Assembly (NCBI GenBank): GCA_043805415.1
Contig: JAZDHZ010000007.1
Span: 93,786 to 157,785 of the forward strand
From: Candidatus Omnitrophota bacterium
GTDB lineage: Bacteria; Omnitrophota; Gorgyraeia; B26-G9
DNA length: 64,000 nucleotides
Reading direction: 5' to 3'
Shown here: positions 581 through 37,993 of the stretch, one piece after another
Layout: each line of letters opens with the position of its first letter
Numbering within the stretch: position 1 is the first letter of the stretch
Made by a program: the position numbers and the translations under genes
The notes under the pieces: model-generated
Databases searched by the model: none
What the model was told of the DNA's origin: nothing
The model's input: the letters and a program-made list of their open reading frames with translations, nothing else

Positions 581-600
581 AATAATTCTCCAACTTTTTC

Positions 601-720
601 AGTCAATAGCTAATAGTCAATGGCTTATAGTTAATAGTTATGAATTACAAGTTATTAGTTTCTAGCTCTTAGCCTGCGGCCGTTTAATTCTTACCATTAG
701 CTATGAGCTATAAGCTTTAC
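601..720. repeat. Intergenic TAGC/ATAG-rich repeat element, copy 1; contains AGTCAATAGCTAATAGTCAAT and TGAATTACAAGTTATT
   Basis: Core ATAGTCAATAGCTAATAG recurs at 34921..34938 (+) and as reverse complement at 37971..37993; sub-motif tgaattacaagttatt matches tgaattataagttatg at 34841..34856. Confidence 0.6.
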
Positions 721-721
721 T

Positions 722-1729
722 CTATTCGCTATCAAAATGACAACTAACCACTAAATGACAATTCCTCCGGCAATTATTTATCTGTTCAATATGCTTATCC
801 ATCTGTTCCGACAGACAAATCCGCTCCAGATTCTGCTTATTTTTTATATTATCGATTATTCCCAGCATCTGGCATTTTGACACATTTCCCGCAGGATCAA
901 TATTCAAAACATTGGCCTGAGCCAAATTACATCTATTGCTTTTAATAAAACTCACGGCATCAAAGAAATATTTTTTAAAAATTTTTAACTGGCCAATGCT
1001 GTCCGCGATTTTATAGCCCTGAGATTTAAACTCAATCAGCTGATTGATTATTCGCTCGATTTCCGGCTTATCGTTTGGCCAAAGGCTCTGATATTCATCA
1101 GACTGAAACCAATACTGATCAGCAGCTTCACTATAAGAAAAAGGCTGGGCTATGGCCTGAAAATTAATATACGCTAAGCGCTTGTCATTTTCCACCCACC
1201 GCGTCAGCTCAATTATATCCAAAAGATTAATCCCGCTGATCACAGTATTAATCCCGATACAAATATCCGGATTACTCTCAGCAATATTTTCAATTGCCTG
1301 TAGAACATGTTCCAATGCCCCGGGTTTGCCTCTGAGAAAATCATGAGTTTTTGGATTTAAACTATCCAGCGAAAAACAAATAAACTTTAAGCCAGAGGCA
1401 GCGATATTCGCTGCGATTTGTTTACTTACATAAAACCCATTGGAAATTAGCTGAATTTGAAGCCCTAAACCAATACCGTGTTTTATTAAATCAAATATAC
1501 CAGCGCGCAGTAAAGGTTCCCCCGGTCCGGAAAAATTAACAATACACTTACCGCGGTCCACAAATTCACTGATTTGCTCTAAAACATTCTTCCATTGTTC
1601 GATGGAAAGAATATTATCCGCGGTTAAAGGACTATCCTGCCAAAATTTGCACATCTGGCATTGAAAATTGCACTCATAGGCAATGCCCAAATCGCAATAT
1701 GTTAATTTTATATTATCTATTTTTTCCAT
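722..1729 (-). CDS. Radical SAM/SPASM-domain protein, subtype A (paralog of 2819..3841)
   Basis: N-terminal CNFQCQMC (CxxxCxxC); HDFLRGKPG motif; C-terminal CX13GX4C (CNLAQANVLNIDPAGNVSKC) and CRRNCHLVVSC Cys cluster typical of SPASM/twitch auxiliary Fe-S domains. Confidence 0.8.
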   Translation of the reverse strand: MEKIDNIKLTYCDLGIAYECNFQCQMCKFWQDSPLTADNILSIEQWKNVLEQISEFVDRGKCIVNFSGPGEPLLRAGIFDLIKHGIGLGLQIQLISNGFYVSKQIAANIAASGLKFICFSLDSLNPKTHDFLRGKPGALEHVLQAIENIAESNPDICIGINTVISGINLLDIIELTRWVENDKRLAYINFQAIAQPFSYSEAADQYWFQSDEYQSLWPNDKPEIERIINQLIEFKSQGYKIADSIGQLKIFKKYFFDAVSFIKSNRCNLAQANVLNIDPAGNVSKCQMLGIIDNIKNKQNLERICLSEQMDKHIEQINNCRRNCHLVVSCHFDSE

Positions 1730-1760
1730 TTTCTATTTTCTTTATGTTCTTGTGTCTTGT

Positions 1761-1780
1761 GGCCACGTCACGCCGTGGCC
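1761..1780. other. GC-rich hairpin ggccacg-tcacgc-cgtggcc, 24-43 nt downstream of the stop of the 1804..2838 gene
   Basis: Perfect 7-bp GC stem in an AT-rich spacer; related motif CACGTCAC..CGTGG at 13194..13211. No U-tract follows on the minus strand, so it is not a canonical terminator. Confidence 0.4.
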
Positions 1781-1803
1781 CTACTATTCGCTATACGCTG
1801 CTT

Positions 1804-2838
1804 TCAATCTTCTTCAAAAAAACAATTGATTAAAAAATGACAGTTTTTCTTACAAGCTTTTATATTCTGCCTGATTATTCCGGCTTTTTCCGAGTTCCAG
1901 ATTATATTTATATCCTCCATCAGACGGATATCTCCGATCGGCTCAAAAGCAAAACAATGATAAATCAGTCCGATGGAACTGATATGTATTGCTTTATCCA
2001 TATTACAGCTGGTTTTTTTCACAAAGCTATCTGGATCGGATAAATACTGTTTCATTGCCTTTAGCTGAGCAATACCGTTATTTATTTTATAGCCTTTAGC
2101 TTTTAATTCTATTAACTGATCAAACAATTCACTGACCCGCTGATTGTTTTTCGGCCATAAAAACCCGTATTTGCCCTTCCACCAGTGTTCTTCCGGCAAA
2201 GTATTATTCGGCTGCATCGGCACAGTCAAAGACACATCTTTGATTTTGGGATTATCATTTACCCATTGCACCAGCTCAATTATCCCAGAATAATTCTGTT
2301 CATAAATCACACTGATCAGGGCTATTTCAATATCCGGCGCGAAACAATGCAGATTATCAATCGCCCGCATCAGCTGCGCGTAAACTCCCTCCACTCCCCG
2401 CAAATAATCATGGGTCTGCCTGTCCATGCTATCCAATGATAGTTTTATAGTTTTTAAACCTGATGCTGCCAAACGTTCGGCAGTATTCTGATCAATTAAA
2501 TATCCATTGGAGACTAAATTTGTGCGCAGTCCGGCTTTATCCGCTGCCGCGATCAGAGCGTAAATATCTTTATGCAGCAAAGCCTCTCCTCCGCCGAAAT
2601 TCAGCACAAAATCCTTGCTCACTATTTTTTTTAACTGATTAAGTAAACTCGCATACTGGCTAAGCGTGGGGAAGCAATCAGCCGCGGTATTTTTAATAAA
2701 AATATCCGGCTGCCATTTATAGCACATCTTACATTTAAGCATGCACTGATCAGTAATCCCTAAAGAAGCGAATTCCGCTTTTTCGCTTATTCGCGCCTGT
2801 TTGATTTGTTCCGGGCTATTATTTAACATATTCTTCAC
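1804..2838 (-). CDS. Radical SAM/SPASM-domain protein, subtype B (paralog of 4085..5125)
   Basis: CMLKCKMC CxxxCxxC; SLDSMDRQTHDYLRG motif; C-terminal CKKNCHFLINC cluster; shares KGYKINN and SCNMDKAIHISS blocks with the 4085..5125 protein. Confidence 0.8.
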   Translation of the reverse strand: MKNMLNNSPEQIKQARISEKAEFASLGITDQCMLKCKMCYKWQPDIFIKNTAADCFPTLSQYASLLNQLKKIVSKDFVLNFGGGEALLHKDIYALIAAADKAGLRTNLVSNGYLIDQNTAERLAASGLKTIKLSLDSMDRQTHDYLRGVEGVYAQLMRAIDNLHCFAPDIEIALISVIYEQNYSGIIELVQWVNDNPKIKDVSLTVPMQPNNTLPEEHWWKGKYGFLWPKNNQRVSELFDQLIELKAKGYKINNGIAQLKAMKQYLSDPDSFVKKTSCNMDKAIHISSIGLIYHCFAFEPIGDIRLMEDINIIWNSEKAGIIRQNIKACKKNCHFLINCFFEED

Positions 2839-3841
2839 TTTCGTTAAAGTTGCAGTTAACCAATGACTGACAGTTTTTTCGGCACAATTTTATCTCAGCG
2901 CGCGCCTGTTCTGCGCTCTGACTAAACCAGAGCTCACTGATCCTATTGCTTTTTATATTTCCGATTGCCTGTTTATCAAAGCATATATGCACGTCTCCGG
3001 TAGGCGTAATATTCAGTGCCCGCAGATCAAGATGACAATGATTTTGCTTTATAAAATCATTGGGCTGGGAAAAATATTTACTGAATACGGCAAACTGATC
3101 TTCCGGGTTTTCCAGCACAAAATCCGCGCGCAAATCAGAGCTGTTTTTAAGTTTTGCCAATTGGCACATTGTCTGCCGCACACAATCCTGATCATTGGGC
3201 CATAAAAAAGCGTATTCTGGTTTTTCATACCATTTATCATCAAACTCAGTATTGAACGGCTGGGTAATCGCCTGATAGCCTATGCCGTGAATGCGTTTAT
3301 CTTTATTGGCCCAAAGCGCGACTTCCACCGCGTCTTTGATATTATAACCGGATATTGTGGTTGTAATATCAATAATTATCCGCGGCGCGTATTTAGCCAG
3401 GCTTGCTATAGCCGCCGCAACTTTGTCAAAACTGCCGGGCTTACCGCGGAGAAAATCATGCGTCTTGGGATTAGCTGAATCCAGAGATATGGTTATCTGG
3501 TTTAATCCGGCTTTGGCTAAATCCTCAGCCATCAGGTCATCGAGCAGATAAGCATTTGTTGCCAGCAAAGTCTCAAAACCCTGTTCACGCGCCCAGCTGA
3601 TCAGTTCAATGGTTTCTTTTCTCAGCAAAGGCTCGCCTCCGGCAAAATTAATCCGCGGTTTTTTGGCCAGGCACATCTGCCCCAGATCAGTTATAAACGC
3701 TTTCCACTGGGTAATTGAAGGCTCCCGCGGATCTCTATATTCCACGGAATTATGCCATTTAAAGCACATCTTACAGCGCATAAAACAGCTCTCAAGTAAA
3801 GCAATACAGCAATATGTCGGTAATTTTTTGTTTTCATTCAT
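2819..3841 (-). CDS. Radical SAM/SPASM-domain protein, subtype A (paralog of 722..1729)
   Basis: CFMRCKMC CxxxCxxC; SLDSANPKTHDFLRGKPG; C-terminal CRKNCQSLVNC; its 3' end overlaps the start of the 1804..2838 gene by 20 nt. Confidence 0.8.
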   Translation of the reverse strand: MNENKKLPTYCCIALLESCFMRCKMCFKWHNSVEYRDPREPSITQWKAFITDLGQMCLAKKPRINFAGGEPLLRKETIELISWAREQGFETLLATNAYLLDDLMAEDLAKAGLNQITISLDSANPKTHDFLRGKPGSFDKVAAAIASLAKYAPRIIIDITTTISGYNIKDAVEVALWANKDKRIHGIGYQAITQPFNTEFDDKWYEKPEYAFLWPNDQDCVRQTMCQLAKLKNSSDLRADFVLENPEDQFAVFSKYFSQPNDFIKQNHCHLDLRALNITPTGDVHICFDKQAIGNIKSNRISELWFSQSAEQARAEIKLCRKNCQSLVNCNFNESEEYVK

Positions 3842-4084
3842 GGAACTTTGTATCCTTGCAACTAGCTTATTCCTCGGTCTAGAATCAATTATTTCTGCTC
3901 ATTCTCGCCTTACATCCTGTAAGGCTCCGAGGATAAATCTCTGATTTTGCCAGTCCTAACAAAATCAGGCTTTAAACCCGCAAAATAATTATTCTAGCCC
4001 TTTTTACTTTATCCTTTTTACTTTTTACTTCCATCTGTGTTCATCGATATTTTTTATTAGTGTTTATCACAAAAGCTTCTGCTT
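3842..4084 (-). promoter_or_regulatory. 243-bp structured spacer between two radical-SAM genes inside the operon
   Basis: Nested inverted repeats: cctcgg...[gccttaca tcc tgtaaggc]...ccgagg at ~3871..3925, and tgattttg-N10-caaaatca at ~3944..3969; no ORF of 60 aa or more. Confidence 0.35.
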
Positions 4085-5125
4085 TTACTTTTCAAATTTA
4101 CAGTTAAGCAGGAAATGACAATTTTCCCGGCAATTATTAATTTCTTTTCGCACTAAATCCGCTTTTACGCTCTGCCACATTTCCCGCACTGATTTTTCCC
4201 GCACATCTCCCAAGCATTGATGGCGGTAACACATAAACATATCTCCTACAGAGCTGATATGAATCGCGTGATCAATATTACAGCTGCTCTGCTTCACATA
4301 GGTATCAGGATCAAGCAAATAGGTTTTAAACGCCTGGATATGCTCAATGGGATTACTAATCTTATAGCCTTTTGTTTTCAGCTGAATAAGCTGATCTAAA
4401 ACCGCTTCCGCCTGTTTATAATCCTTAGGCCATAGTTCATTAAACGCCGGGTCTTTCCACCACTGGGTTTGAAGTTCCGTATTATTTGGCTGCATCAGCA
4501 CCATCAGATAAATCATATTGATTTTATTATTTTCCTGAACCCAGTTAACCAGATCAACCATTCCGCCCAGCGTGGGCTGCATAATAATCGAGCAAATACT
4601 GATCTGGATATTAGGCGCGTACGCGTGCACCAGATCAATCGCGTTCATAACCTTATCATAAACCCCGTCAACTCCGCGCAAATAATCATGGGTTTTTCTA
4701 TTAAGACTGTCCAAAGAAATATTGATATAATCAAGCCCGCTGTCGCGCATCTTCTCAACCATTGGTTTATCCACAATGAAGGCATTGGTGGCAATATTGG
4801 TTTTAAACCCCAGTTCATGACAGAACTTAACCAGATCAAACAGCCATGGCACTGTAGTGATTTCTCCTCCCCCGAAATTAATAATAAAATCATTGGGCGC
4901 GATTTTACGCAAAGAAAGAGCGCTCTGTTTCCAGTCGTCAAGCCCCAGCTGTCTGCGATCATCTTTAATGTAAATATCCTGTTTCCACTTTTGACACATT
5001 CTGCAGCCCAGCATGCAATCATCGCAAATACTAAAGCAGCAAAATGTCAGTTTCGGGATCTGGCTGATATTTTCCTTTCTATTAGTAATATTATTCATTA
5101 TTAATCTCCGTAATTGTTTTAACAT
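4085..5125 (-). CDS. Radical SAM/SPASM-domain protein, subtype B (paralog of 1804..2838)
   Basis: CMLGCRMC CxxxCxxC; SLDSLNRKTHDYLRG; C-terminal CRENCHFLLNC; 3-nt gap to the upstream Wzt-like gene, so co-operonic. Confidence 0.8.
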   Translation of the reverse strand: MLKQLRRLIMNNITNRKENISQIPKLTFCCFSICDDCMLGCRMCQKWKQDIYIKDDRRQLGLDDWKQSALSLRKIAPNDFIINFGGGEITTVPWLFDLVKFCHELGFKTNIATNAFIVDKPMVEKMRDSGLDYINISLDSLNRKTHDYLRGVDGVYDKVMNAIDLVHAYAPNIQISICSIIMQPTLGGMVDLVNWVQENNKINMIYLMVLMQPNNTELQTQWWKDPAFNELWPKDYKQAEAVLDQLIQLKTKGYKISNPIEHIQAFKTYLLDPDTYVKQSSCNIDHAIHISSVGDMFMCYRHQCLGDVREKSVREMWQSVKADLVRKEINNCRENCHFLLNCKFEK

Positions 5126-5128
5126 TAA

Positions 5129-8100
5129 TCATTCCTTATCCTTATTAACTTTAATCTTTATCTTAAATTCAATTTTCTTATCCTGAACAGTAATATTTTT
5201 AGTTTTGCTTAATATTACCCGGCTATTATGATTCTCATCCGTATCTTTAATAATATTATCCCAATCAACACTGCACCAAGCTTCCCAGCTAATTTCCGGC
5301 AATTTACTGTTTTCCGCGAAAACTTTCATCTTATTCTTAGACTCAGCGACCTGACGCCAAACATCCGGATTGCTCCGCGGCGCGAACATCCCGAATTTCC
5401 GGGGATGTTCAGATACCTGCCAATTAACAAATTCTTTGTTCAGCATTATTCCCACGGCTATATCTTCAATCAGCGCAGGATCCAACTCGAAATAAATCCG
5501 CCATAATATTTCATTATCATCACCGTATTCAATTTCCTGAGTATGAGCGATTAAACAGTCTGCTTTGAATTTCAGCCGGATCATATCAGCGGTTTTATCA
5601 AGCTGTAATAATAACTGGGATGAATCAAACCAGTAATCTTTTGTTTTCATGGCTGTATACAGGCATAAGCCGTTAGTCAGCTCTTTGCGGTCATAGAACA
5701 ATCTTATTCTAGCCTGATCCAAGACAAGTTTAATTCTGCCTTTGTTCAGTTCCTTTAGCGGCAAAGTTTTTTTCTGAACACAATTATGGTTAAAATCATT
5801 AATTTTTTTCTCTTCCGAAGAAAGCAGAATATTTGCTTTAAATATTTCATGCTTACCGGGTTCAAGAACAAATGCCTGTTCCGCGAGCAAACGTTTAACT
5901 CCCAAAACAATAATCTCTTTGTTCGCTGGCTTAAATATCTGCAGCAGCCATTGCCCCATATCAGCTAAAGGAGCAAAAGCAATTTCCGCTGACTGTTCCG
6001 CGGCTAAATCAGTTTGTTTTAAAACAATATACCGGCTGCGGTTGTCGATAAGGTCTATGGCTTGAAATCCCTGGTCATGATCATTTAAAGCGATTACTCC
6101 CTTACCTAGTTCGCTCAGCCAATGCCGAAAAACTTTGGGTAAAAACATATTTATTGTCAGCGCGTATATTGCTGTTTGTTCTAAAACTTCCAGTTCCACG
6201 ATCCAGGAAATATATCCCGCTTTTTCCTGTAAATACCAGTTCTGGACAAGGAGGGGATTATTATATGTAATTTTAATAAAAAGCGTATGCGGATCCTGTT
6301 TTTTAATCTGCCAGTGCCCCTGGAAAGAATCAAATTCATCATAAGCGCTGACGATTACTGCCAAACCGCAGTCAGCGCTGATCAGCTTATTTTGATAATA
6401 AAGTTCTGTTTTTTGCTGCTTGGCTGTTAATCGGCAAGTCTCTGAACAAACTATAGAAAAATCTTGTTCGCAGTATTCATCTATTCCCTTTTGCCAGGAT
6501 TCCGGATCAACGATATCAAGTTCGGCGCTAAAAACCGGCTTCTGATCGTTTAATTCTCCGGGGTTTAATTTAGCCTGAAACTGCAGGTTCCTTGAACGAT
6601 TTGAATACTGCAGCAAGGGAGTATAAGCAAACTCGCTTAAACTATTATGCTTAAACAGCACGGCGCAGCCGGCATCATCAGTACAGGCTCCCAGCAAACA
6701 GCTGTTTAATTCTGTAAGGTCAATAAGCTTGATTTCCTGCGCGTCATTGCTGAACCTATTTTTTTCATACGCATTAATCCACTGCCGGAATCGCGGATTT
6801 AGTATGATTCCCACTTTATATTCAAAAGCATCATTTAATTCAAGCGGGTCTAAATATACATTCCAAATAAGGCTATGCTGTTTTAATTCAATCCGCCAAG
6901 ACTCTTTTACCTTGGGAAATTTTCTCTGAATGCTTACCAGCAGATAATTATCTTTTTTTTCAATTTTTTTGGCCACACCATGCGATTCATACCAGCGCTT
7001 ATTTAAAAATATTCCGCTGCTAAACCCGGCTAAAGCCGCCGTAATCTCGGTCTGTCCGAAAAATAAACGAATCCTGTCTTGGCCGCAATCAATACGCAGC
7101 GAGTCATTGCCCAGGAGATTAGCGGAATTAAATTTATCTCTTTGCTTGGCAATAAACCGCTGTTTTTCCTCAGACTGTTCAATAACCATCATTCGGCAAT
7201 TAATTGACGCGCTGTCCTGACTGCTGATCCGAATCCGCCGGGTACTTAGTTCCTGGCGGCAATTATACAGATCAATCCGGGCATTATCATCCGCCTCGGC
7301 AATAAAATGCTTATCCTGCCGCGCCTTACTGCTTAAGCCGACAAACCCGCATTTATTATGTTTTAAAATAACCTTTTCGTCAAACTCAATCGCGGGTAGA
7401 AAATCATTTTCCTGAGTTAATTCAAAATACGAATCATAATCATCAGTCAGATCAGCGTCGATCCAGATTAAGCTCTGGCTCTGTTCTAGGCTTTGCCCAT
7501 TTTTCAGCGACATTTTAAGCAATAATTCCTTGCCGGTTAAAATTAAATTTAATCTTACCTGAATCTGTTGCGTAAAAAATTCAGAATCAACCGCGAATTC
7601 CGCCTCACTGATCTTTGTGATTTTCCATTTTCCCTCAAATATATTATAAACATGATTTTGCTGTTTAAATCCGCAAACCAGTCCAAAGCCTTTGCTTATT
7701 TGTTCTGTTCCGTTAAAAAGCTGAAAACTTTTTTCTTCCAGCTTAAGCGTTAAACTATCTTTGCTGATGCGGATTTTTTCCTGCTGCTGCCTGAGCTTTT
7801 GTTCCAGCTGTTTTTTATCCAGCAGCTGAATCAGGGTTTTACATACCGCGCTTTGTTTCTGGTCTAAGAAAACATGCGTTTGGATAATATTTGCCGCGAA
7901 ACCTTCCTGGCGCTGGATCAAACCAAAACCGCGCTGCTGGTCGATATTAAAATTCGCCCAGACCGCGGGGATATCCGAATCAGCCGCGGACAATACCAGT
8001 AAAGCCTCCTTCTGGTCAGTACGATACAAATCCTGGCATTGCTCAGTGGTAAAATTTTCCGCGGCCCGCATAGGTTTTATTTTATCCGCGTCCAGATAAT

Positions 8101-9184
8101 GTTTATATTGATCATTAAACATAAAGCCGAAAACCGCTCTTTCCGCTTTTTGATCAGCCGTCAGGTTAATACTGCCGATACATTCAAATTCTCGCTCATT
8201 CTCCAGTTTAACCTGGATTTGCGCGCTTATCCGATTAGCCCATTGCCCCTGGACAAGAAAAAAATCTTTTTCGGTTTTAATTACCTGCCAATTCGCCTCC
8301 CAGGACATCAGCCATTTATCCCAGAGTTTTAAGCTTAAATACCCGCCAAAATCAGCGGTTATCGGTTTTCCGTCCCAAAGCAAGACAAGCCTTCCGCTAT
8401 TAAAAATAATGCTCAGTTTTTCCTGGTCAATGCAGGCAATAGCCTGTTTCTGCCCCACTGCCTGGACATAGCGGATAATTGATTTATGGATTGAGTCATC
8501 TTTTACTATCTGTCCGGTTTTCAGCAAAATACCCCGGGTGGCAATCCGGCTTAAAGAATCCAGATCATGGGAAACAATTACCACGGTCGCACCTTGTTTG
8601 TTCATTTCCATTATTCGCTTTAAACACTTAGCCTGAAACTCGGCATCGCCCACAGCCAGACTGTCATCAATCAGGAAAATATCCGGATTTACATGCACAG
8701 CCACGGAAAAGCCTAAACGCACGAGCATGCCCTGGGAATAAGTTTTTACCTGAGAGTCAATGAACTCATTTAGCCCGGAAAATTCAACGATTTCAGCAAA
8801 CAGGGCGTGAGTCTGTTTTTTACTCAAACCATAAAGCGCGGCATCAAGATAGATATTTTCTCTTCCGGTTAATTCCGGATGAAATCCCGCGCCTAAATCA
8901 AGCAGTCCCGCTACTTTGCCTTTAACATATATTTGCCCGCTGGAGGGCACCGTGATTTGGCTGATAATCCTCAGAATTGTTGTTTTGCCTGAAGCGTTTT
9001 CTCCGATAATCCCCAGAATCTCGCCTTTTTGCACTGAGAAACTAATATCTTTTAATGCCAAGACCTCGCGCTTGTTCCGGGCTTTTTTAAAAAAAGACAG
9101 AAAATTGCTGACTAAGAATTGTTTCCCTGAATTAAAACAATACTTTTTGCTGATGTTTTTCAGTTCAATAACTTTTTCTGACAT
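5129..9184 (-). CDS. Wzt/TagH/KpsT-type polysaccharide ABC-exporter ATPase (N-terminal ~250 aa) fused to a ~1100-aa C-terminal extension of repeated W-rich domains (1351 aa total)
   Basis: Walker A GENASGKTT; family block KGKVAGLLDLGAGFHPELTGRENIYL; YSQGM signature (Wzt-type YSxGM, not LSGGQ); Walker B FLIDDSLAVGD. The extension carries recurring W-x-(I/V) blocks (WQVIKTEKDFF, WKITKISEAEF, WRIELKQHSLIW, WQIKKQDPHTLF). Confidence 0.8.
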   Translation of the reverse strand: MSEKVIELKNISKKYCFNSGKQFLVSNFLSFFKKARNKREVLALKDISFSVQKGEILGIIGENASGKTTILRIISQITVPSSGQIYVKGKVAGLLDLGAGFHPELTGRENIYLDAALYGLSKKQTHALFAEIVEFSGLNEFIDSQVKTYSQGMLVRLGFSVAVHVNPDIFLIDDSLAVGDAEFQAKCLKRIMEMNKQGATVVIVSHDLDSLSRIATRGILLKTGQIVKDDSIHKSIIRYVQAVGQKQAIACIDQEKLSIIFNSGRLVLLWDGKPITADFGGYLSLKLWDKWLMSWEANWQVIKTEKDFFLVQGQWANRISAQIQVKLENEREFECIGSINLTADQKAERAVFGFMFNDQYKHYLDADKIKPMRAAENFTTEQCQDLYRTDQKEALLVLSAADSDIPAVWANFNIDQQRGFGLIQRQEGFAANIIQTHVFLDQKQSAVCKTLIQLLDKKQLEQKLRQQQEKIRISKDSLTLKLEEKSFQLFNGTEQISKGFGLVCGFKQQNHVYNIFEGKWKITKISEAEFAVDSEFFTQQIQVRLNLILTGKELLLKMSLKNGQSLEQSQSLIWIDADLTDDYDSYFELTQENDFLPAIEFDEKVILKHNKCGFVGLSSKARQDKHFIAEADDNARIDLYNCRQELSTRRIRISSQDSASINCRMMVIEQSEEKQRFIAKQRDKFNSANLLGNDSLRIDCGQDRIRLFFGQTEITAALAGFSSGIFLNKRWYESHGVAKKIEKKDNYLLVSIQRKFPKVKESWRIELKQHSLIWNVYLDPLELNDAFEYKVGIILNPRFRQWINAYEKNRFSNDAQEIKLIDLTELNSCLLGACTDDAGCAVLFKHNSLSEFAYTPLLQYSNRSRNLQFQAKLNPGELNDQKPVFSAELDIVDPESWQKGIDEYCEQDFSIVCSETCRLTAKQQKTELYYQNKLISADCGLAVIVSAYDEFDSFQGHWQIKKQDPHTLFIKITYNNPLLVQNWYLQEKAGYISWIVELEVLEQTAIYALTINMFLPKVFRHWLSELGKGVIALNDHDQGFQAIDLIDNRSRYIVLKQTDLAAEQSAEIAFAPLADMGQWLLQIFKPANKEIIVLGVKRLLAEQAFVLEPGKHEIFKANILLSSEEKKINDFNHNCVQKKTLPLKELNKGRIKLVLDQARIRLFYDRKELTNGLCLYTAMKTKDYWFDSSQLLLQLDKTADMIRLKFKADCLIAHTQEIEYGDDNEILWRIYFELDPALIEDIAVGIMLNKEFVNWQVSEHPRKFGMFAPRSNPDVWRQVAESKNKMKVFAENSKLPEISWEAWCSVDWDNIIKDTDENHNSRVILSKTKNITVQDKKIEFKIKIKVNKDKE

Positions 9185-9208
9185 TATTTTTTCCTTAACC
9201 TGCTCATT

Positions 9209-9988
9209 TTAAGTAAAATCAGCGAAAAATTTCTTATTATTCCTAAATAAAACAATGCCCAATATCCCAAAGCCAAGGCTTATGCCCAGCATCCAGCCAA
9301 GGGCAAAAAAACCGGGAACTTTAGCATAAAGCAAAATATCCCGGTAAGCGTTTATATACAAGCTCAAGGGATTAAGGTAAAAAAATCCTCGGATATTTTC
9401 CGGAACCAAAGACAAAGGATAAAAAATCGGAGTAGCATAAAACCATACCAGCATAATCAGCTCAATAATATATTTCACATCCCGGTAAAAAGTATGCAAA
9501 GCCGCCACAGACAGGCAAAGCCCAACAATAAATACAGTCTGAAGAATGATTATCAGCGGCAGATAAACCCACGGCCAGCTGGGGAAAATTCTAAAATAAG
9601 CTAAAAACGCGAATAGGAGAAACTGGGAAATAAGAAAATTAAACAGATTCGCGCAAACAACGGAAAGCGGAATCACTTCATAAGGAAAATAAGCTTTTTT
9701 AATCAGACTGGCATTATCGACTATTGAAGTCGCGGCCGCGGTTAAAGAAAAATTCAGAAAAAACCAGGGCAAAAGCGCGCTCAGAAGAAATACCGGATAA
9801 TTGGCAATCTGGATCTTCATAATAAAAGTAAACACCAGGCTGAAAACCAGCATTAAAAGCAAAGGATTGAGCAAAGACCATAGCCAGCCTAAGACCGCTG
9901 ACTTATACTTTATTTTTATTTCTTTTTTAGTCAGGCTGATAATCAAATTGCGGTAAGCATAAATGCTTTTTATATAAGCGTAACTCAT
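9209..9988 (-). CDS. ABC-2 type (Wzm/TagG-like) polysaccharide exporter permease
   Basis: 259 aa, about 6 hydrophobic helices; sits directly upstream of the Wzt-like ATPase; start overlaps the stop of the 9985..11277 gene. Confidence 0.75.
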   Translation of the reverse strand: MSYAYIKSIYAYRNLIISLTKKEIKIKYKSAVLGWLWSLLNPLLLMLVFSLVFTFIMKIQIANYPVFLLSALLPWFFLNFSLTAAATSIVDNASLIKKAYFPYEVIPLSVVCANLFNFLISQFLLFAFLAYFRIFPSWPWVYLPLIIILQTVFIVGLCLSVAALHTFYRDVKYIIELIMLVWFYATPIFYPLSLVPENIRGFFYLNPLSLYINAYRDILLYAKVPGFFALGWMLGISLGFGILGIVLFRNNKKFFADFT

Positions 9989-12625: not shown

Positions 12626-13009
12626 TTATGACGACAGCTCTAATCCTTCGAGAAAATCATCAACAATTTTTTTATTCTGGTCATTTTTCCACCAGGAAAA
12701 GCTTATCCCTGATCTATATTTATCAGCATCCTGGTAAGTCCATTCCACTTTGCCGAAAACTCTTATTGGGCTAATAGTTTCATTTAGTAAAATATCTATA
12801 CTTAGACGTGTGCCAACAGCCATTGTTTCTTTTGAATAAATTCCTGCGCCGAAAAGAGTAAAATCCCGCAAAAAGCATTCTGTTCCGTTCCAATAGCGAA
12901 ACCATGCCTGCGGATCTAAGGGCCTAACCTGTACAGCTGATTTATCAGCTAATTTTCTTATATTCGCTCTCTGTTCCTTTGCGATAATATCCATATTTTT
13001 TTGCTCCAA
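12626..13009 (-). CDS. Small stand-alone PilZ-domain protein (putative c-di-GMP receptor)
   Basis: RANIRK (RxxxR) and DFTLFG (DxSxxG-like) motifs; paralog of the 37540..37899 protein (RPLDPQ.WFR.WN...VFGKVEW...G.SFSWWK shared). Confidence 0.6.
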   Translation of the reverse strand: MEQKNMDIIAKEQRANIRKLADKSAVQVRPLDPQAWFRYWNGTECFLRDFTLFGAGIYSKETMAVGTRLSIDILLNETISPIRVFGKVEWTYQDADKYRSGISFSWWKNDQNKKIVDDFLEGLELSS

Positions 13010-13262: not shown

Positions 13263-13937
13263 TTATTTAGGCAGGGAAATTGTAGCAGTATAGTCATTTT
13301 TGTAAAATTCAGGGTTTGTTGTTTGTGTGCCCATGCCCATTTCTATGGTAATCAATACTTCTATCTTGCTCGGCGCTCCGTCAGTTCGTGAATCCCAGTC
13401 AATGAATGGAGCTCCGGAGCTGTCAAAAAAAGTAAATTGTAAATCAGTGATATTTTCGGAAAATGGATCGCTTGATCCAGTATTAAAATTAAAATCAAAA
13501 CCAACCGGATCTAAGGTTTTTCTACCGTCAGTAACATAAAATCTTTCTAATACATCATCATTTAATTCCGCGGTTCCCTGCCCATCCAGCCAGAATCCAA
13601 CTTCACATAAATCGGATTTATCAGCTTCATTTGGATTTAAAGCAGCAATAAAATAAAGTTCATCGCCAATGCTATCTGTTCTCCATCCGCTGGGAGTGGT
13701 TTTATCAAATCCTAAACAATAAAAATTATTACCTTCTCTAATCACCGCGCTGGAAATCTCTCGAGTCATTCGATCTAAAACAACCCGCGCGATAGTCGTA
13801 GATTTTAAAATATTATCCGCCTTTTTCCAAGCACGCAAAGAAACATTAAAAACCGAATACAAAATCGCTATCAGTAAAGCAAGAATTCCGATAGAAACTA
13901 AAAGCTCAATCAGGGTAAATCCTTTTTTTAAAACCAT
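13263..13937 (-). CDS. Type IV pilin / pseudopilin-like protein (prepilin N-terminal cleavage/methylation domain)
   Basis: N-terminus KKGFTLIELLVSIGILALLIAILYSVF: class III signal with G-1, F+1, E+5 and a hydrophobic helix; start codon overlaps the stop of the upstream 767-aa gene. Confidence 0.7.
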   Translation of the reverse strand: MVLKKGFTLIELLVSIGILALLIAILYSVFNVSLRAWKKADNILKSTTIARVVLDRMTREISSAVIREGNNFYCLGFDKTTPSGWRTDSIGDELYFIAALNPNEADKSDLCEVGFWLDGQGTAELNDDVLERFYVTDGRKTLDPVGFDFNFNTGSSDPFSENITDLQFTFFDSSGAPFIDWDSRTDGAPSKIEVLITIEMGMGTQTTNPEFYKNDYTATISLPK

Positions 13938-31098: not shown

Positions 31099-31139
31099 TA
31101 AGCTCTTCTTTGATTAAATATTTATCATTAACTAAAATA

Positions 31140-34715: not shown

Positions 34716-34840
34716 AACTTTTCTCCTCGTTAAGAATTAAAGCTCTTTATAAAGATTACAGAAAATGCGATAAAGTATACCATGAGTTTTGGGATAATGC
34801 AAATGTGTAACGATTTGATAATAAACGGTTTAAGGAGTTA

Positions 34841-34945
34841 TGAATTATAAGTTATGGGTTGGCGAGTTTGCCAGTTAGGAAAGCAGCGAGTAGTGTTTAG
34901 GACTTAGCGTAAAGTGATCCATAGTCAATAGCTAATAGAAAAATG
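34841..34945. repeat. Intergenic repeat element, copy 2 (TGAATTATAAGTTATG ... ATAGTCAATAGCTAATAG)
   Basis: Exact 18-mer ATAGTCAATAGCTAATAG at 34921..34938; 5' sub-motif matches 641..656. Confidence 0.55.
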
Positions 34946-35037
34946 GAAGATGGGAAAAACTAAAAAAGTTTATAAATAAAACCAGAACTCGTGAACGCGC
35001 TAACGCGCAAACTGGTTAACACTATTGGTTAACACTA

Positions 35038-35151
35038 CTAATTTACATTTACCAATTTACCCAGATACTCTCCCACTAATTGATTATCTTTTACTTCTTC
35101 ATACCCTTTGATTATTAATATTAAATCCCGAACAATCTGCCCATTAGCCAT
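35038..35151 (-). pseudogene. Remnant of a PilZ-paralog 3' end (37 codons), immediately downstream of AbiEii
   Basis: Minus-strand translation MANGQIVRDLILIIKGYEEVKDNQLVGEYLGKLVNVN*; the last 17 aa match the C-terminus of the 37540..37899 PilZ protein (KDDQDKQLVNEYLGKLLNIN); shares the 14-mer aatttacccagata with 37567..37580. Confidence 0.5.
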
Positions 35152-35159
35152 AATGTAAA

Positions 35160-36059
35160 TTATTCTGTTACCAGTTCAAACCTAGTCCCACTTTCCATAG
35201 CGTTATTAATTCTGGTAAGAGCCTTATCTAGACTGAAATTATCCCGCTCATTGAGCGACAAAACATCAAATAGCTCTGCTTCAATGCGTGAATTCATATC
35301 TTTTATTTCTTCATCTGATCTGCCAAGATTTTTTCTGTATTTAACTAAATCTGTATCGGCATCATCCTCCTGAAGTTTCTTTTTAAACAGCGTCATTACT
35401 TCTTTATCTGCTAAATCAAACTTATTGCGAAGAATAAAGTCAATATCGTAGAAATCGCGCGGAGCTATAATTTGACGTGTCGCGCCTGCGCGTAACTTTT
35501 CTGAAACAATCTCTTTTAGTGACATACACTGAATCTCGCCACTAGCAAACAATGGCTCATCAGTAAAAGAGTGTTTGAATTTATGCTGTACCGCTCTTTT
35601 TTCAGTGTCTAAAATAGGGTTAAATTTCAAACCTACTTCAAATTTAATTGTCTGCTCAGAAAGTGTTGTAACAGAATCATATACGATATGGTACACATAC
35701 TGCTTTGATTCATTTCTCCCGGGATTACCGGCATCATCAATCCTCATGCTAAATTGCTTCACAAACCTCTCAATACCATTCTTAACCGGCTGGATGCATT
35801 TACGCCTCTCACCTCGTGTAGCTTGATACCGCGGAAGCATCATACTAAAATCAAGATCTTCACTCAAACGATAATATGAATAATATATCTTATTGAGACA
35901 GGTTCCTCCTTTAAAAATAAGATTACCTGACAATTCATGTATACGAGAAAGCAGTAATGTTAAATAATAATCTTTTTCTATCAGCGGCGCATAAAATCCC
36001 GTTAATGACGCGATACGATCAATAAGAATAAAAAATTGTTCTTTATCTTCGTGTATCAT
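35160..36059 (-). CDS. abiEii: AbiEii-family nucleotidyltransferase toxin (type IV TA / abortive-infection AbiE system)
   Basis: N-terminal hallmark IEKDYYLTLLL...LIFKGGTCLNKIYY...RLSEDLDF (KDYxL...FKGGTxL...R.SEDxDF); ~300 aa; overlaps the upstream AbiEi gene by 17 nt. Confidence 0.75.
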   Translation of the reverse strand: MIHEDKEQFFILIDRIASLTGFYAPLIEKDYYLTLLLSRIHELSGNLIFKGGTCLNKIYYSYYRLSEDLDFSMMLPRYQATRGERRKCIQPVKNGIERFVKQFSMRIDDAGNPGRNESKQYVYHIVYDSVTTLSEQTIKFEVGLKFNPILDTEKRAVQHKFKHSFTDEPLFASGEIQCMSLKEIVSEKLRAGATRQIIAPRDFYDIDFILRNKFDLADKEVMTLFKKKLQEDDADTDLVKYRKNLGRSDEEIKDMNSRIEAELFDVLSLNERDNFSLDKALTRINNAMESGTRFELVTE

Positions 36060-36856
36060 TAATAATAATTCTCCATTTTTTATTTAACGTACCTTTTCTT
36101 GATTCTGACAATGAGGCAATCGACGTTTCTTTGACACTTTTTACAAGTGATCTCAATAATAGATCACTAATTCCACATTTTTCCAATATGTACCCCATAT
36201 ACTTACGAGTCTTTATATTGGGAAACCGAGTCGCATAGTCAATAAGCGTTTTTATGTCACATTTTTTTTCTGTTACAAACCTCTCTACTATCTGGCCTGC
36301 GGCAAAAAAACCGCCTACCGGCTTATTAAAATAAATAAGATCAACCAATGTTTTTTCTTTTGAACTAATGCAAACATTAACGCCTCTTATAATTTTTTTT
36401 TTCAATCCCATACATTTGAGCCCGAGACACATTTATAAACTTAAACAGAATTCCCGCAATCTTTTTTTCCTTGCTCAAGCTCGTATTAAGAACATACACT
36501 TTCTGGAATTGCTGATCTGTAAAGCTGTAATAGTTAAACATTGTAGAATATCCAATATAGTAATCCCCCTTAGGAAAATAAATTGATGGTATTATAAACT
36601 CACTAATACGGCGTCCTGTAGGAACTGATTCAAGAGGAACAAATATATATATGCCGCTTTTAATAGGAATTAAAATATTTTTTGTTTTTAACCTGAATAC
36701 AAGTTGTCTTCTATAAGAAAAATCAGCAGGCAAAAAAGCATCCAACTCTTTTGCTGTTACGATCTCTTTTTTTTCATAGACAAGCCGCGCGATAAGTTCT
36801 GTCTCTGTTTGACTAAGCGAACTAAATGTTTTTTTATTTGGCATATGTACCCCCAC
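36043..36856 (-). pseudogene. abiEi: AbiEi-family antitoxin/transcriptional regulator, interrupted by a -1/+1 frameshift in an A10 homopolymer (T-run 36393..36402 on the plus strand)
   Basis: Two overlapping ORFs: 36377..36856 (N-terminal wHTH-like LVFRLKTKNILIPIKSGIYIFV) and 36043..36432 (C-terminal ...CISSKEKTLVDLIYF...). Removing one A from GAAAAAAAAAAT fuses them into one ~270-aa AbiEi (GIEKK|IIRGVNVCISS). Confidence 0.65.
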
Positions 36857-37330
36857 AGTTACATTGAACTAACGATAATACATTAATATAGTAACATATA
36901 AGACTTATAAGTCAATGGAAAACTGTATTACATGGAAAACTGTATTATTAAAGCCGCAAAAAAATGCTCATACTATAATTCTTTATATTAATTACCTCTA
37001 CTACATTATTAATATTCAATCCTAAACAATCTGCTCAAAATAAAAAGCACACAAGAGCAGCGTATAGCGAAAAGGAATGTTCATTAGTTAAAAGTTTATA
37101 AAGTGAAAGGCGGAAAGCGTAAACTACTTAGCTGATGGCTCTTGGGAAAAACAGGAAAAACAGATAGAGTAAAAGTTTGTAAAGTTCTCGAGTTTAGCGA
37201 TTGGCGGGTCACAAGAAAAGTCACCAGGACACAAAAAAAATAGTATTGAGCATTGCGTAAAACCGAAGGATGAGAGACGATCGCTGCGCTAGGACGACGG
37301 ACGGAAAAGCAGGAAGCATAAAAAACATGC

Positions 37331-37368
37331 TGGCTCATGGCTAATAGCTGATAGCTAATGGTCAATGG
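37331..37368. repeat. Intergenic repeat element, degenerate copy (tggctcatggctaatagctgatagctaatggtcaatgg)
   Basis: Same GCTAATAG / TCAATGG building blocks as the copies at 601, 34921 and 37971. Confidence 0.4.
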
Positions 37369-37476
37369 TAAAAAAATAAAGAAAATAGTATTGCGTATCG
37401 CGTATTGAGTATAGCGTAAAGCAAAAAGAGCTTAGCGGATATCCCTTCGACTTCGCTCAGTGTAAAGATTACAAGC

Positions 37477-37511
37477 AAAAAAAGCATGAAGCTTATTGCT
37501 AGCTTCATGCT
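37477..37511 (-). terminator. Rho-independent terminator downstream of the PilZ gene (also a weaker plus-strand terminator)
   Basis: Perfect 11-bp stem agcatgaagct/agcttcatgct with a 7-nt loop; preceded on the plus strand by AAAAAAA, i.e. a U7 tract after the hairpin on the minus strand; lies 30-60 nt past the 37540 stop. Confidence 0.65.
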
Positions 37512-37539
37512 TTAAAGTATTTTATACTAAATATTATAA

Positions 37540-37899
37540 CTAATTTATATTTAATAATTTACCCAGATATTCATTAACCAACTGTTTATCCTGGTCGTCT
37601 TTCCACCAGGAAAAACTAACTCCGGTTCGATACATTCCAGCATCTTCGGTTATCCACTCCACCTTACCGAAAACCCGGATTGTACTAATATCCTTGCTCA
37701 GGCGCAAGTCAATGCTTAACGGCGTGCCAATCGGTATTCTTTCATTGGAAACCACTCCCGCGCCAACCATGCTGATATCGCGCATGGAATATTCTGCGCT
37801 GTTCCAAAACCTGAACCATACCTGAGGGTCAAGCGGGCGAAGACTTATTGAACTGTTCTTAGCTTCCTTGCGTGCGCTATTGCGTCTATCCTTATCCAT
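37540..37899 (-). CDS. Small stand-alone PilZ-domain protein (paralog of 12626..13009)
   Basis: RRNSAR (RxxxR-like) and DISMVG (DxSxxG) motifs; collinear with the 12626..13009 protein. Confidence 0.6.
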   Translation of the reverse strand: MDKDRRNSARKEAKNSSISLRPLDPQVWFRFWNSAEYSMRDISMVGAGVVSNERIPIGTPLSIDLRLSKDISTIRVFGKVEWITEDAGMYRTGVSFSWWKDDQDKQLVNEYLGKLLNIN

Positions 37900-37920
37900 T
37901 GTGATTACTCCTTTATCAGC

Positions 37921-37993
37921 CTATGGCTGATAGCTTATGGCTAATGGCTCATAGCTTATAGTTTTTTACTATTGACTATTAGCTATTGACTAT
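37921..37993. repeat. Intergenic repeat element, copy 3 (inverted orientation) between the giant-ORF stop and the PilZ gene start
   Basis: 37971..37993 is the exact reverse complement of ATAGTCAATAGCTAATAGTCAAT (= 601..621); flanked by tagcttatgg / ctaatggctc units. Confidence 0.6.

What the first reader, a model, noticed from the sequence alone, without database searches (positions are those of the whole stretch)
601..37993. Recurring intergenic repeat family with core ATAGTCAATAGCTAATAG(TCAAT)
Exact 18-21-mers occur at 601..621 (+), 34921..34938 (+) and 37971..37993 (reverse orientation). A degenerate copy lies at 37331..37368, embedded in longer TAGC/ATAG/TCAATGG-unit elements. All copies are intergenic and 20-200 nt upstream of minus-strand gene starts (the 1..580 ORF, the 1191-aa gene, the PilZ gene). 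Read on the minus strand, copy 1 gives CCATTGACTATTAGCTATTGACT, with two TTGACT (-35-like) hexamers. It could be a shared promoter/operator or a REP/MITE-like element.
Basis: seen in the sequence. Interest (0 to 1): 0.55.

Follow-up and report, generated by a model that had tools for sequence, protein, structure and literature searches.

The report
Heptamer repeat arrays between Omnitrophota genes
The recurring 18-21-mer is not a promoter or a mobile element but the visible tip of degenerate 7-base tandem repeat arrays that fill several gaps between genes in a Candidatus Omnitrophota genome. This is a known but functionally unexplained kind of bacterial repeat, here seen in a phylum where I found no report of it.

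Summary
The exact 18-mer lies at 34921-34938 (+) and 37976-37993 (-), and the 21-mer at 601-621 equals the reverse complement of 37971-37991 (0.07 matches expected by chance).

The copies are pieces of degenerate heptanucleotide tandem arrays with units such as TAGTCAA, TAGCTAA, TGGCTTA and TAGTTAA. All 8 period-7 segments in the window are intergenic. Two intergenic regions keep one 7-nt register from stop codon to Shine-Dalgarno sequence.

The source is a Candidatus Omnitrophota MAG. Orthologous intergenic regions in relatives carry arrays with different unit numbers (about 0, 3, 5, 7 and 10).

This fits slipped-strand expansion and decay of 7-nt units, not a conserved operator, promoter, REP or MITE. 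Motif orientation relative to genes is inconsistent. A different conserved promoter-like motif and true REP-like hairpins occur nearby.

The closest known cases are TAACTGA-type and mixed heptamer repeats of Beggiatoaceae, cyanobacteria and Bacteroidetes, and cyanobacterial STRR. Function remains unproven; an effect on mRNA structure next to ribosome-binding sites is the most I can infer. It is a new member of a known kind, of modest interest.

The parts
581..721 (.). Whole intergenic region between the radical-SAM gene (722-1729, -) and the 1..580 ORF. It consists of about 20 heptamer units in a single register from stop codon to the GGAG ribosome-binding site. In mRNA sense the units read TTATAGC TCATAGC TAATGGT ... 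TATAAGC CATTGAC TATTAGC TATTGAC.
   Evidence: TRF periods 7 and 14 at 601-640. Period-7 segments at 620-654 and 691-727. Whole-region column-entropy z = -11.0 at period 7 and about 0 at periods 5, 6, 8 and 9.
601..621 (+). Two of the three units (14 nt) are absent at the orthologous site in relative L043.
   Evidence: I1. Affine-gap alignment of window against L043: 64/69 identical, with only a 7-nt and a 14-nt gap, the 14-nt gap lying inside this motif.
3998..4036 (.). Heptamer array with another unit (CTTTTTA on the + strand, TAAAAAG on the mRNA strand) in the intergenic region between two radical-SAM/SPASM genes.
   Evidence: TRF 4000-4030, period 7, 4.4 copies, 83% matches. Period-7 scan.
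34833..34860 (.). Array GGAGTTA TGAATTA TAAGTTA TGGGTT (mRNA sense CATAACT TATAATT CATAACT), upstream of the promoter-like motif of the 1191-aa gene. It has 3 units here and 5 units in relative L031.
   Evidence: The unit count is read from the sequences.
34891..34938 (+). Short arrays with TAG every 7 nt (TAGTGTT TAGGACT TAGCGTA ... TAGTCAA TAGCTAA TAG).
   Evidence: TAG-N4-TAG-N4-TAG at 34891 and 34922. L031 has unrelated heptamers (CATCGTC...) at the orthologous place.
37327..37373 (.). It lies downstream of the pilZ terminator and 470 nt upstream of the next gene.
   Evidence: Terminator at 37513..37481.
37385..37429 (.). Array with a different unit (GTATTGC / GTATCGC / GTATTGA / GTATAGC).
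   Evidence: TRF period 7 (79%) and period 14 (88%) at 37388-37418..
37913..37961 (.). Array arm that ends at the pilZ ribosome-binding site. In mRNA sense it reads CTATAAG CTATGAG CCATTAG CCATAAG CTATCAG CCATAGG CTGATAA | AGGAG. It has 7 units here, 5 in L034 and L036, 3 in L035, about 10 in L031 and about 0 in L033.
37962..37967 (.). T6 (A6 in the mRNA) centre between the two inverted array arms, forming the loop of an imperfect hairpin.
   Evidence: minimum free energy -27.6 and -32.2 kcal/mol, z -3.1 and -2.8.
37968..37998 (-). Inverted array arm, in mRNA sense TCGATAG TCAATAG CTAATAG TCAATAG. A 22-nt stretch including the loop (window 37962-37983) is identical in L035.
   Evidence: I1, I25. 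(L035 9896-9917, 100% over 22 nt).

Best explanation
The 18-21-mers are fragments of degenerate heptanucleotide tandem-repeat arrays. These arrays make up much of several intergenic regions of this Candidatus Omnitrophota genome.

The arrays grow and shrink in steps of one or two 7-nt units, by slipped-strand mispairing or unequal recombination, and then decay by point mutation. They persist only in non-coding DNA, because 7 is not a multiple of 3 and most units carry stop triplets.

The same 18-21-mer recurs because two favoured units (TAGTCAA and TAGCTAA) were expanded independently at different sites. It is not a discrete element that was copied, and it is not a conserved protein-binding site.

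Many units are near-palindromes (CTA-N-TAG, TAGCTA), so arrays in opposite orientation form imperfect stem-loops.

Shown here: the 7-nt periodicity, the restriction to intergenic DNA, and the indels of 7 and 14 nt between orthologues.

Inferred: slippage as the process. Also inferred is that any effect is on spacing and secondary structure of the intercistronic mRNA just 5' of the ribosome-binding site, rather than sequence-specific regulation.
For: - Period 7 only. Eight period-7 segments, all in the 4.9% of the window that is intergenic; periods 4-12 show nothing comparable.
- Lag spectrum of pooled intergenic DNA. Peaks at 7, 14, 21 and 28 nt (0.356, 0.332, 0.311, 0.302 against about 0.285 baseline). 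The same peaks appear in about 7 kb of intergenic DNA from relatives. Coding DNA shows only period 3.
- Whole-region register. Two regions keep one register end to end (z = -11.0 and -9.9).
- Source and relatives. The source is a Candidatus Omnitrophota MAG. Independent assemblies of relatives carry arrays at the orthologous giant-gene to pilZ intergenic region. Unit numbers are about 0, 3, 5, 5, 7 and 10, and the last unit before the ribosome-binding site is conserved.
- Radical-SAM intergenic region. Window and L043 are 64/69 identical over the 3' part, with only a 7-nt and a 14-nt gap.
- Higher-order 14-nt periodicity. TRF finds period 14 more regular than period 7: 82% against 66% matches at 601-640, and 88% against 79% at 37388-37418. 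This fits recent two-unit duplications.
- Unit turnover. Unit sequences differ between orthologous sites.
- Precedent. The same behaviour (mixed heptamers, 7-nt indels between strains, close relatives lacking arrays) is published for cyanobacteria and Bacteroidetes (PMC4679880).
Against: - Slippage was not observed directly. L031 and L032, from two samples, have identical arrays, so turnover is slow.
- A purely neutral origin does not explain why the same AT-rich units recur in arrays of genomes with 56-66% GC.
- It also does not explain why arrays persist at the same intergenic region across relatives whose PilZ is only 56-62% identical.
- Nor does it explain the 22-nt stretch that is identical between the window and L035.
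- Hairpin potential is uneven: z from -0.4 to -4.5 in the mRNA sense.
Confidence: 0.7

Rival explanations
1. The arrays are binding sites for an oligomeric RNA- or DNA-binding regulator that reads a triplet repeated every 7 nt. This would resemble HutP, which binds UAG-N4-UAG-N4-UAG, or the post-transcriptional regulator proposed for TAACTGA repeats. It would control translation of the downstream gene.
For: - TAG-N4-TAG-N4-TAG occurs 5 times against 0.30 expected, always intergenic.
- Two arrays end within a few nucleotides of the ribosome-binding site.
- MacGregor 2015 proposes this for TAACTGA repeats.
- A Nostoc preprint reports altered reporter expression when heptamers are deleted.
- Unit vocabulary is shared across phyla.
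Against: - The TAG-N4 runs are on the mRNA strand in 2 cases and on the opposite strand in 3.
- Arrays also lie downstream of a terminator and upstream of a promoter-like site.
- At least five unrelated unit types are used.
- Orthologous sites change unit sequence, or lose the array entirely in L033.
- No candidate regulator gene is adjacent.
Confidence: 0.15
2. One reading: the motif is a shared sigma-70 type promoter or operator, with its TTGACT hexamers acting as -35 elements.
For: There are two TTGACT hexamers per copy. One promoter-like match exists, TTGACT-16-TATTAT at 606..579.
Against: - That match puts the -10 hexamer on the start codon and downstream of the ribosome-binding site.
- Copy 3 is inverted relative to its gene.
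- No promoter-like site overlaps copies 2 or 3.
- The motif is not conserved in orthologues.
- The lineage has another conserved promoter-like motif instead.
Confidence: 0.04
3. One reading: the motif is a REP-, REPIN- or MITE-like dispersed mobile element.
For: Inverted arms can form hairpins. The 18-mer occurs in array context in many phyla and in one viral contig. Relatives carry genes for Y1 transposases of the kind associated with REP elements.
Against: - Similarity between copies stops at 18-43 nt of shared units.
- There is no fixed length, and no terminal repeats or target duplications.
- Differences between orthologues are internal 7-nt and 14-nt indels, not presence or absence of a whole element.
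- The hairpins that flank the Y1 transposase genes have an unrelated sequence (AACCCAATTCTGAC...) and are absent from the window.
Confidence: 0.05
4. The arrays are selected as stop-rich, two-strand 'insulators' that end stray translation in every frame, or as processing or stability hairpins that separate the pilZ message from the transcript of the more than 26-kb giant gene.
For: - Stop triplets have density 0.097 in arrays against 0.067 +/- 0.004 in shuffles and 0.076 in other intergenic DNA. TAG is 1.9-fold enriched.
- A heptamer holding a stop puts it in all three frames within 21 nt. This follows from arithmetic, since 7 mod 3 = 1.
- An AUCAGC...GCUGAU stem next to the pilZ ribosome-binding site is kept in four relatives.
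- The fold z-score is -3.7 in the window and -4.5 in L036.
Against: - The stop enrichment is modest and inflated by repeated units.
- Some unit types have no stops (GGACGAA, TTCGCTA).
- Fold z-scores are near 0 for other arrays and show no strand preference.
- The conserved stem never varies, so it gives no covariation evidence.
Confidence: 0.06

Closest known systems
TAACTGA and mixed heptamer direct repeats of marine Beggiatoaceae, cyanobacteria and Bacteroidetes (MacGregor 2015, PMC4679880)
   Same: Tandem 7-nt units, almost exclusively intergenic and often ending a few nucleotides before a start codon or ribosome-binding site. The arrays are mosaics of several heptamers. Related strains differ by indels in 7-nt increments, and close relatives may lack the array. 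The units contain stop triplets.
   Different: No TAACTGA tandem occurs here. The units are degenerate (66-84% matches), not perfect. Both orientations occur relative to the gene, often as inverted pairs. The host phylum is Omnitrophota, and ribosome-binding sites here are strong (AAGGAG, GAGGAG) rather than rare.
Cyanobacterial short tandemly repeated repetitive (STRR) heptamers (Mazel et al. 1990; cited from my own knowledge, not read here)
   Same: Heptanucleotide tandem arrays in non-coding DNA. STRR2 (TTGGTCA) is a cyclic permutation of TGGTCAT, one base from units seen here (TGGTCAA, TAGTCAA).
   Different: STRR1 (CCCCAGT) and STRR3 (CAACAGT) are unrelated in sequence. STRR were defined in heterocystous cyanobacteria.
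Long simple sequence repeats with 5-11 nt units (Mrazek et al. 2007, as summarised in PMC4679880)
   Same: Heptanucleotides are the most abundant class in most genomes. Polymerase slippage is the proposed origin. Units that are not a multiple of 3 are excluded from coding DNA.
   Different: That survey counted long, near-perfect arrays. Here the arrays are short, decayed and mixed.
Contiguous heptamer repeats near promoters and start codons in Nostoc PCC 7120 (Pradhan et al. 2022 preprint, 10.1101/2022.06.06.494920)
   Same: 3-8 contiguous heptamers lie within 30-100 nt of start codons. The reverse complement of GACYAAT (ATTRGTC) is a cyclic permutation of TRGTCAT, one base from the TAGTCAA and TGGTCAA units seen here. 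A regulatory role is suggested but no binding partner is known.
   Different: A reporter effect was measured there. Nothing functional is known here.
REP/REPIN elements with their Y1 transposases (RAYT)
   Same: Intergenic, hairpin-forming and dispersed.
   Different: REPs are fixed-length palindromes, typically beginning with GTAG, and are mobilised as units. Such elements do exist in this lineage (window 1761-1784; L042; hairpins around Y1_Tnp genes in L034 and L035), but they have unrelated sequences.
HutP and TRAP RNA sites (triplets repeated at fixed spacing; from my own knowledge)
   Same: One arm reads UAG-N4-UAG-N4-UAG-N4-UAG on the mRNA strand (37969-37992), the spacing recognised by HutP.
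   Different: Strand and unit sequence are inconsistent among arrays. No HutP- or TRAP-like gene was seen in the window. This is a resemblance only.

Membership tests
Heptanucleotide tandem-repeat arrays (STRR / LSSR / TAACTGA-type) | Head-to-tail units of exactly 7 nt | tested here: met
   TRF period-7 rows. Only period 7 is enriched. Lag peaks at 7, 14, 21 and 28 nt. Whole-region register z = -11.0 and -9.9.
Heptanucleotide tandem-repeat arrays (STRR / LSSR / TAACTGA-type) | Confined to non-coding DNA | tested here: met
   8 of 8 segments in the window and 14 of 15 in relatives are intergenic. Intergenic DNA is 4.9% of the window.
Heptanucleotide tandem-repeat arrays (STRR / LSSR / TAACTGA-type) | Unit-number differences in multiples of 7 between related genomes | tested here: met
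   Gaps of 7 and 14 nt only, within a 93%-identical alignment. The array before pilZ has 3, 5, 5, 7 and about 10 units. Another array has 3 units against 5.
TAACTGA repeats sensu MacGregor 2015 | The unit is TAACTGA, near-perfect, in forward orientation just upstream of the start codon | tested here: not met
   No TAACTGATAACTGA at up to 2 mismatches. Units are degenerate and occur in both orientations.
Cyanobacterial STRR1-3 | The unit is CCCCAGT, TTGGTCA or CAACAGT | tested here: not met
   None of the units listed is one of these. TGGTCAA (37359-37365) is one base from a permutation of STRR2.
REP / REPIN | Fixed-length imperfect palindrome present as many near-identical dispersed copies, associated with a RAYT gene | tested here: not met
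   Copies share only 18-43 nt of units. No Y1 transposase was found among the window proteins scanned. Hairpins next to Y1 transposase genes in relatives are unrelated in sequence.
MITE | Defined element with terminal inverted repeats and target-site duplication; presence or absence of the whole element between relatives | tested here: not met
   Orthologues differ by internal 7-nt and 14-nt indels, not by whole-element insertion. No terminal repeats or duplications appear.
Sigma-70 promoter / operator | Fixed orientation and distance to the gene, a -10 partner at 16-18 nt, and conservation in orthologues | tested here: not met
   Orientation is inconsistent. The only match overlaps the ATG. 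None overlaps copies 2 or 3. The motif is not conserved.
HutP-type RNA site | UAG-N4 repeated at least 3 times on the transcript, plus a cognate HutP-like protein | tested here: inconclusive
   The pattern is present 5 times against 0.3 expected, but on the mRNA strand in only 2 of 5. The protein could not be searched for in the rest of the genome.

The most novel reading that the evidence does not exclude
The heptamer arrays may be a functional class shared across phyla, rather than a slippage by-product. AT-rich, near-palindromic, stop-carrying units of one 'grammar' (T-R-G-Y-N-A-W: TAGCTAA, TGGCTAA, TAGTCAA, TAGCGAA) recur in intergenic arrays of Omnitrophota, cyanobacteria, Bacteroidota, Deinococcota, Chloroflexota, Desulfobacterota and Clostridia, including genomes with 56-66% GC. 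They often take the form array, A/T-run, inverted array. This could mean they are read by a widespread factor, or are selected as two-strand translation stops or RNA structure modules next to ribosome-binding sites.
Probability: 0.12. Interest if true: 0.65.

Novelty: new member of a known kind. Interest (0 to 1): 0.3.

Why it matters
Heptamer arrays are one of the commonest unexplained features of bacterial intergenic DNA, and their function has been debated since 1990 without resolution.

This window adds a phylum, Omnitrophota, made up of host-dependent nanobacteria with giant genes. It also gives a clean comparative series: the same intergenic region with about 0, 3, 5, 7 and 10 units directly in front of a ribosome-binding site. 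That series could be turned into a reporter experiment on whether unit number tunes translation.

For genome scanning it is a caution. Exact 18-21-mers that recur upstream of genes can arise from independent expansion of the same short unit, and need not mark a regulon or a mobile element.

Tried and rejected
- **Rfam and tRNA scans.** Nothing found in the window.
- **Source contig look-up.** Looking up the window's own PilZ and its 100%-identical database entry by exact sequence failed. The rest of the 182-kb source contig could therefore not be read, and a genome-wide count was impossible.
- **First metagenome scan.** The scan with the 1191-aa protein found no relatives. The second, with a PilZ alignment, gave 6 loci.
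- **MAFFT on the repeat-rich intergenic region.** It placed gaps of 5 and 18 nt by sliding one register. An affine-gap alignment gave a much better solution with gaps of 7 and 14 nt.
- **Terminator idea.** Rejected. The array hairpin has its T-run in the loop, and a canonical terminator exists separately at 37513..37481.
- **RNA-specific structure.** Rejected as a general property. Fold z-scores are uneven and equal on both strands.
- **Stop-codon insulator.** Only a modest enrichment.
- **HutP-like site.** Strand-inconsistent.
- **Phage-borne element.** Two viral hits, one clearly by chance.
- **Universal 'TRGYNAW' grammar.** Significant in the motif-selected loci (12 against 2.5). It is weak in the unbiased Omnitrophota relatives (5 against 2.2), so I do not claim it.


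Full report
**1. Observation**

The 18-mer ATAGTCAATAGCTAATAG is exact at 34921-34938 (+) and 37976-37993 (-). Two overlapping 2-mismatch copies lie at 599-630 (+). That is 4 matches at up to 3 mismatches against 0.07 expected, and no shuffle reaches 4.

The repeat finder pairs several of these stretches:
- 601-643 with 37949-37991 (43 nt, 77%, exact 21-mer core)
- 34918-34938 with 37976-37996 (21 nt, 95%)
- 693-715 with 37340-37362 (23 nt, 91%)

**2. What the repeat really is**

Reading the sequence shows a strict 7-nt period. An example is TAGTCAA TAGCTAA TAGTCAA TGGCTTA TAGTTAA TAGTTAT GAATTAC AAGTTAT TAGTTTC TAGCTCT.

- Tandem Repeats Finder reports period 7, and often a cleaner period 14, at 601-640, 37340-37359, 37388-37418, 37913-37961 and 37968-37997.
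- A self-similarity scan for periods 4-12 finds 8 period-7 segments, all intergenic, although intergenic DNA is only 3160 nt (4.9%) of the window. No other period behaves like this.
- Pooled intergenic DNA has identity peaks at lags 7, 14, 21 and 28 (0.356, 0.332, 0.311, 0.302 against about 0.285). Coding DNA shows only the codon period.
- Two intergenic regions, 581-721 and 37900-38024, hold a single 7-nt register from the upstream stop codon to the ribosome-binding site. The column-entropy z-score is -11.0 and -9.9 at period 7 and about 0 at periods 5, 6, 8 and 9.
- Other arrays use other units: CTTTTTA at 3998-4036, GTATTGC-type at 37385-37429, and GAGTTAT/GAATTAT-type at 34833-34860.

**3. 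Context**

All 26 genes run on the minus strand, with strong GC skew. The arrays sit in several different settings:
- between a radical-SAM gene and the start of a large radical-SAM/SPASM protein (581-721)
- between an ORF of more than 8657 aa and a small pilZ gene (37900-38024)
- downstream of the pilZ terminator (37327-37429)
- upstream of the 1191-aa HEAT-repeat gene (34833-34938)

Genes have strong ribosome-binding sites (AAGGAG, GAGGAG, GGAG). A canonical intrinsic terminator follows pilZ at 37513..37481.

The PilZ protein is 100% identical to an NCBI entry from a Candidatus Omnitrophota MAG. All close homologues are Omnitrophota. A pilZ gene directly after a giant gene is a synteny already described for this phylum (preprint 10.1101/2023.11.21.568195).

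**4. Comparison with relatives**

Contigs from independent assemblies keep the giant-gene to pilZ order. They are L031/L032, L033, L034, L035, L036 and L038, with PilZ 56-82% identical.

I cut the intergenic region into 7-nt pieces from the ribosome-binding site leftwards. The array in front of pilZ then has 3 units in L035, 5 in L034 and L036, 7 in the window and about 10 in L031. L033 has almost none, with an intergenic region of only about 50 nt. The last unit (GCTGATTA|CGGAG or CTGATAA|AGGAG) is conserved.

The second intergenic region was tested through radical-SAM orthologues.
- L043 is 93% identical to the window over the 3' 69 aligned bases. The only gaps are 7 nt and 14 nt.
- L042 has no heptamers at that place. 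It has GC-rich GTAG-type hairpins instead.

The sequence downstream of pilZ in L031 and L036 is orthologous to window 35088-34802. There, copy 2 is replaced by other heptamers, and the CATAACT/TATAATT array has 5 units instead of 3.

L031 and L032, from two samples, are identical. Turnover is therefore slow, unlike phase variation.

**5. Mechanism**

The following features are what slipped-strand mispairing or unequal exchange of 7-nt units followed by decay would produce:
- indels of 7 and 14 nt
- 14-nt higher-order periodicity
- similarity that decays with lag
- changing unit sequences at orthologous sites
- exclusion from coding DNA

This is the explanation already offered for heptanucleotide repeats (Mrazek 2007, as summarised in PMC4679880). 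The three 'copies' are therefore independent local expansions of the same two units.

Many units are near-palindromic (CTA-N-TAG, TAGCTA). Oppositely oriented arrays therefore pair. The pilZ leader folds with z = -3.1 to -3.7, L036 with -4.5 and L031 with -2.4. Other arrays do not fold unusually well, and both strands fold equally.

Stop triplets are modestly enriched: 0.097 against 0.067 in shuffles, with TAG 1.9-fold. I infer, but cannot show, that any effect is on spacing and structure of the mRNA just 5' of the ribosome-binding site.

**6. Rivals**

*Promoter or operator.*
- The TTGACT hexamers are on the mRNA strand in copies 1 and 2 and on the other strand in copy 3.
- The one promoter-like match puts the -10 hexamer on the ATG.
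- No promoter-like site overlaps copies 2 or 3.
- A different motif, TTGCA-N15-TGGTAYACT, sits 59 nt upstream of the 1191-aa gene. It recurs 12 times in 7 Omnitrophota loci and never in 30 unrelated loci.

*REP or MITE.*
- There are no element boundaries.
- Real REP-like hairpins in this lineage have other sequences.

*Periodic-triplet RNA site (HutP-like).*
- TAG-N4-TAG-N4-TAG is enriched, 5 against 0.3 expected.
- It lies on the mRNA strand in only 2 of 5 cases.

**7. Wider distribution**

The exact 18-mer occurs in 30 stretches of the species-representative genome set. In 27 of them the flanks continue the 7-nt period.

The hosts are cyanobacteria (6), Bacteroidota (10), Deltaproteobacteria and Desulfobacteraceae MAGs, a Roseiflexaceae MAG, Deinococcota, Clostridia, a PVC-group bacterium and others. 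They include genomes with 56-66% GC.

Other arrays in those loci use related units: 12 clusters against 2.5 +/- 1.5 in shuffles. However, those loci were selected by the motif. In the unbiased Omnitrophota relatives the same grammar is only weakly enriched, 5 against 2.2. I therefore record the shared vocabulary as unexplained rather than as a finding.

**8. Comparison with what is known**

MacGregor 2015 (PMC4679880) describes the following for Beggiatoaceae, cyanobacteria and Bacteroidetes:
- intergenic TAACTGA and mixed heptamer arrays
- arrays often ending just before start codons
- 7-nt indels between strains
- relatives that lack the arrays

Nostoc PCC 7120 has contiguous heptamers near start codons, and reporter expression changes when they are deleted. 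Cyanobacterial STRR heptamers are the classical case (my own knowledge).

The present arrays meet the defining features of the general class: 7-nt tandem units, non-coding location and 7-nt-step variation. They are not TAACTGA repeats and not STRR1-3.

Two Omnitrophota genomics preprints do not contain the words 'heptamer', 'tandem repeat' or 'intergenic'.

**9. Verdict**

The feature is real, and its interpretation is corrected. It is a new member, in a new host phylum, of a known but functionally unresolved kind of repeat. Interest is modest (0.3). The main value is the comparative unit-number series next to a ribosome-binding site, and the warning it gives for motif-based inference.

Noticed in passing
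window 1761-1784 (-); L042 1613-1637, 3720-3745, 3873-3897, 3935-3958, 5010-5033, 5085-5109: A GC-rich hairpin that starts with GTAG (GTAGGGCCACGGCGTGACGTGGCC), like classical REP elements. There is one copy in the window and about six in 9 kb of relative L042. In L042 these hairpins occupy the intergenic regions that hold heptamer arrays in the window and in L043.
   Followed up: partly
L034 10440-11230; L035 10395-10430 and 13990-14745; L038 downstream of pilZ: A gene of about 212-222 aa for a Y1 transposase (PF01797, like REP-associated RAYTs) is flanked on both sides by the hairpin TAACCCAATTCTGAC...GTCAGAATTGGGTTA. A solo hairpin also lies next to pilZ. No copy is in the window.
   Followed up: partly
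window 34774-34802 (-): A promoter-like motif, TTGCA-N15-TGGTAYACT (extended -10), lies 59 nt upstream of the 1191-aa gene. The same motif occurs 12 times in 7 Omnitrophota loci and 0 times in 30 unrelated loci, so it may be a lineage-specific promoter class or regulon.
   Followed up: partly
window 35043-37539: The block holding the AbiEii toxin gene (35160-36059), two small overlapping ORFs (36043-36856) and heptamer arrays is absent between pilZ and its downstream sequence in L031 and L036. A relic of the pilZ 3' end (...DNQLVGEYLGKLVNVN*) lies at 35043-35093 inside a 38-aa ORF. This suggests a cassette that integrated at the pilZ 3' end and brought a replacement end.
   Followed up: partly
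window 38025-63998 (-): One open reading frame of more than 8657 aa runs off the window, followed by pilZ. This is the giant-gene plus pilZ synteny described for Omnitrophota. Only a weak glycosyltransferase-2 hit was found in the last 1991 aa.
   Followed up: no
window 1-9988 (-): Four tandem radical-SAM/SPASM paralogues (722-5125) lie next to a 1351-aa ABC ATPase and an ABC-2 permease. The 1..580 ORF is the N-terminus of a radical-SAM/SPASM protein of about 1183 aa. The order is conserved in L042 and L043 and looks like a peptide-maturation cluster.
   Followed up: no
window 12626-13009, 16279-18231, 37540-37899: Three PilZ-domain proteins lie in 25 kb, two of them small paralogues (72% DNA identity over 126 nt). 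They are next to a pilin-like gene (13263-13937) with an N-terminal methylation motif.
   Followed up: no
window 35013-35037 and 36915-36947: Two perfect short tandem duplications lie in intergenic DNA: a 13-nt one (TGGTTAACACTAT x1.9) and a 17-nt one (ATGGAAAACTGTATTAC x1.9). The 13-nt unit is single-copy at the orthologous place in L031 and L036.
   Followed up: no
whole window: All 26 predicted genes are on the minus strand, and GC skew is negative in every 2-kb bin (-0.08 to -0.29). This is an unusually strong strand bias for a 64-kb stretch.
   Followed up: no
L046 about 1600-1800 (IMG/VR contig IMGVR_UViG_3300028920_000055): A 90-kb viral contig carries the 18-mer inside a dense mosaic of heptamers (TAGGGTA x4, TAGTCTA, TAGTCAA, TAGCTAA). 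Such arrays therefore also occur on putative phage DNA.
   Followed up: no
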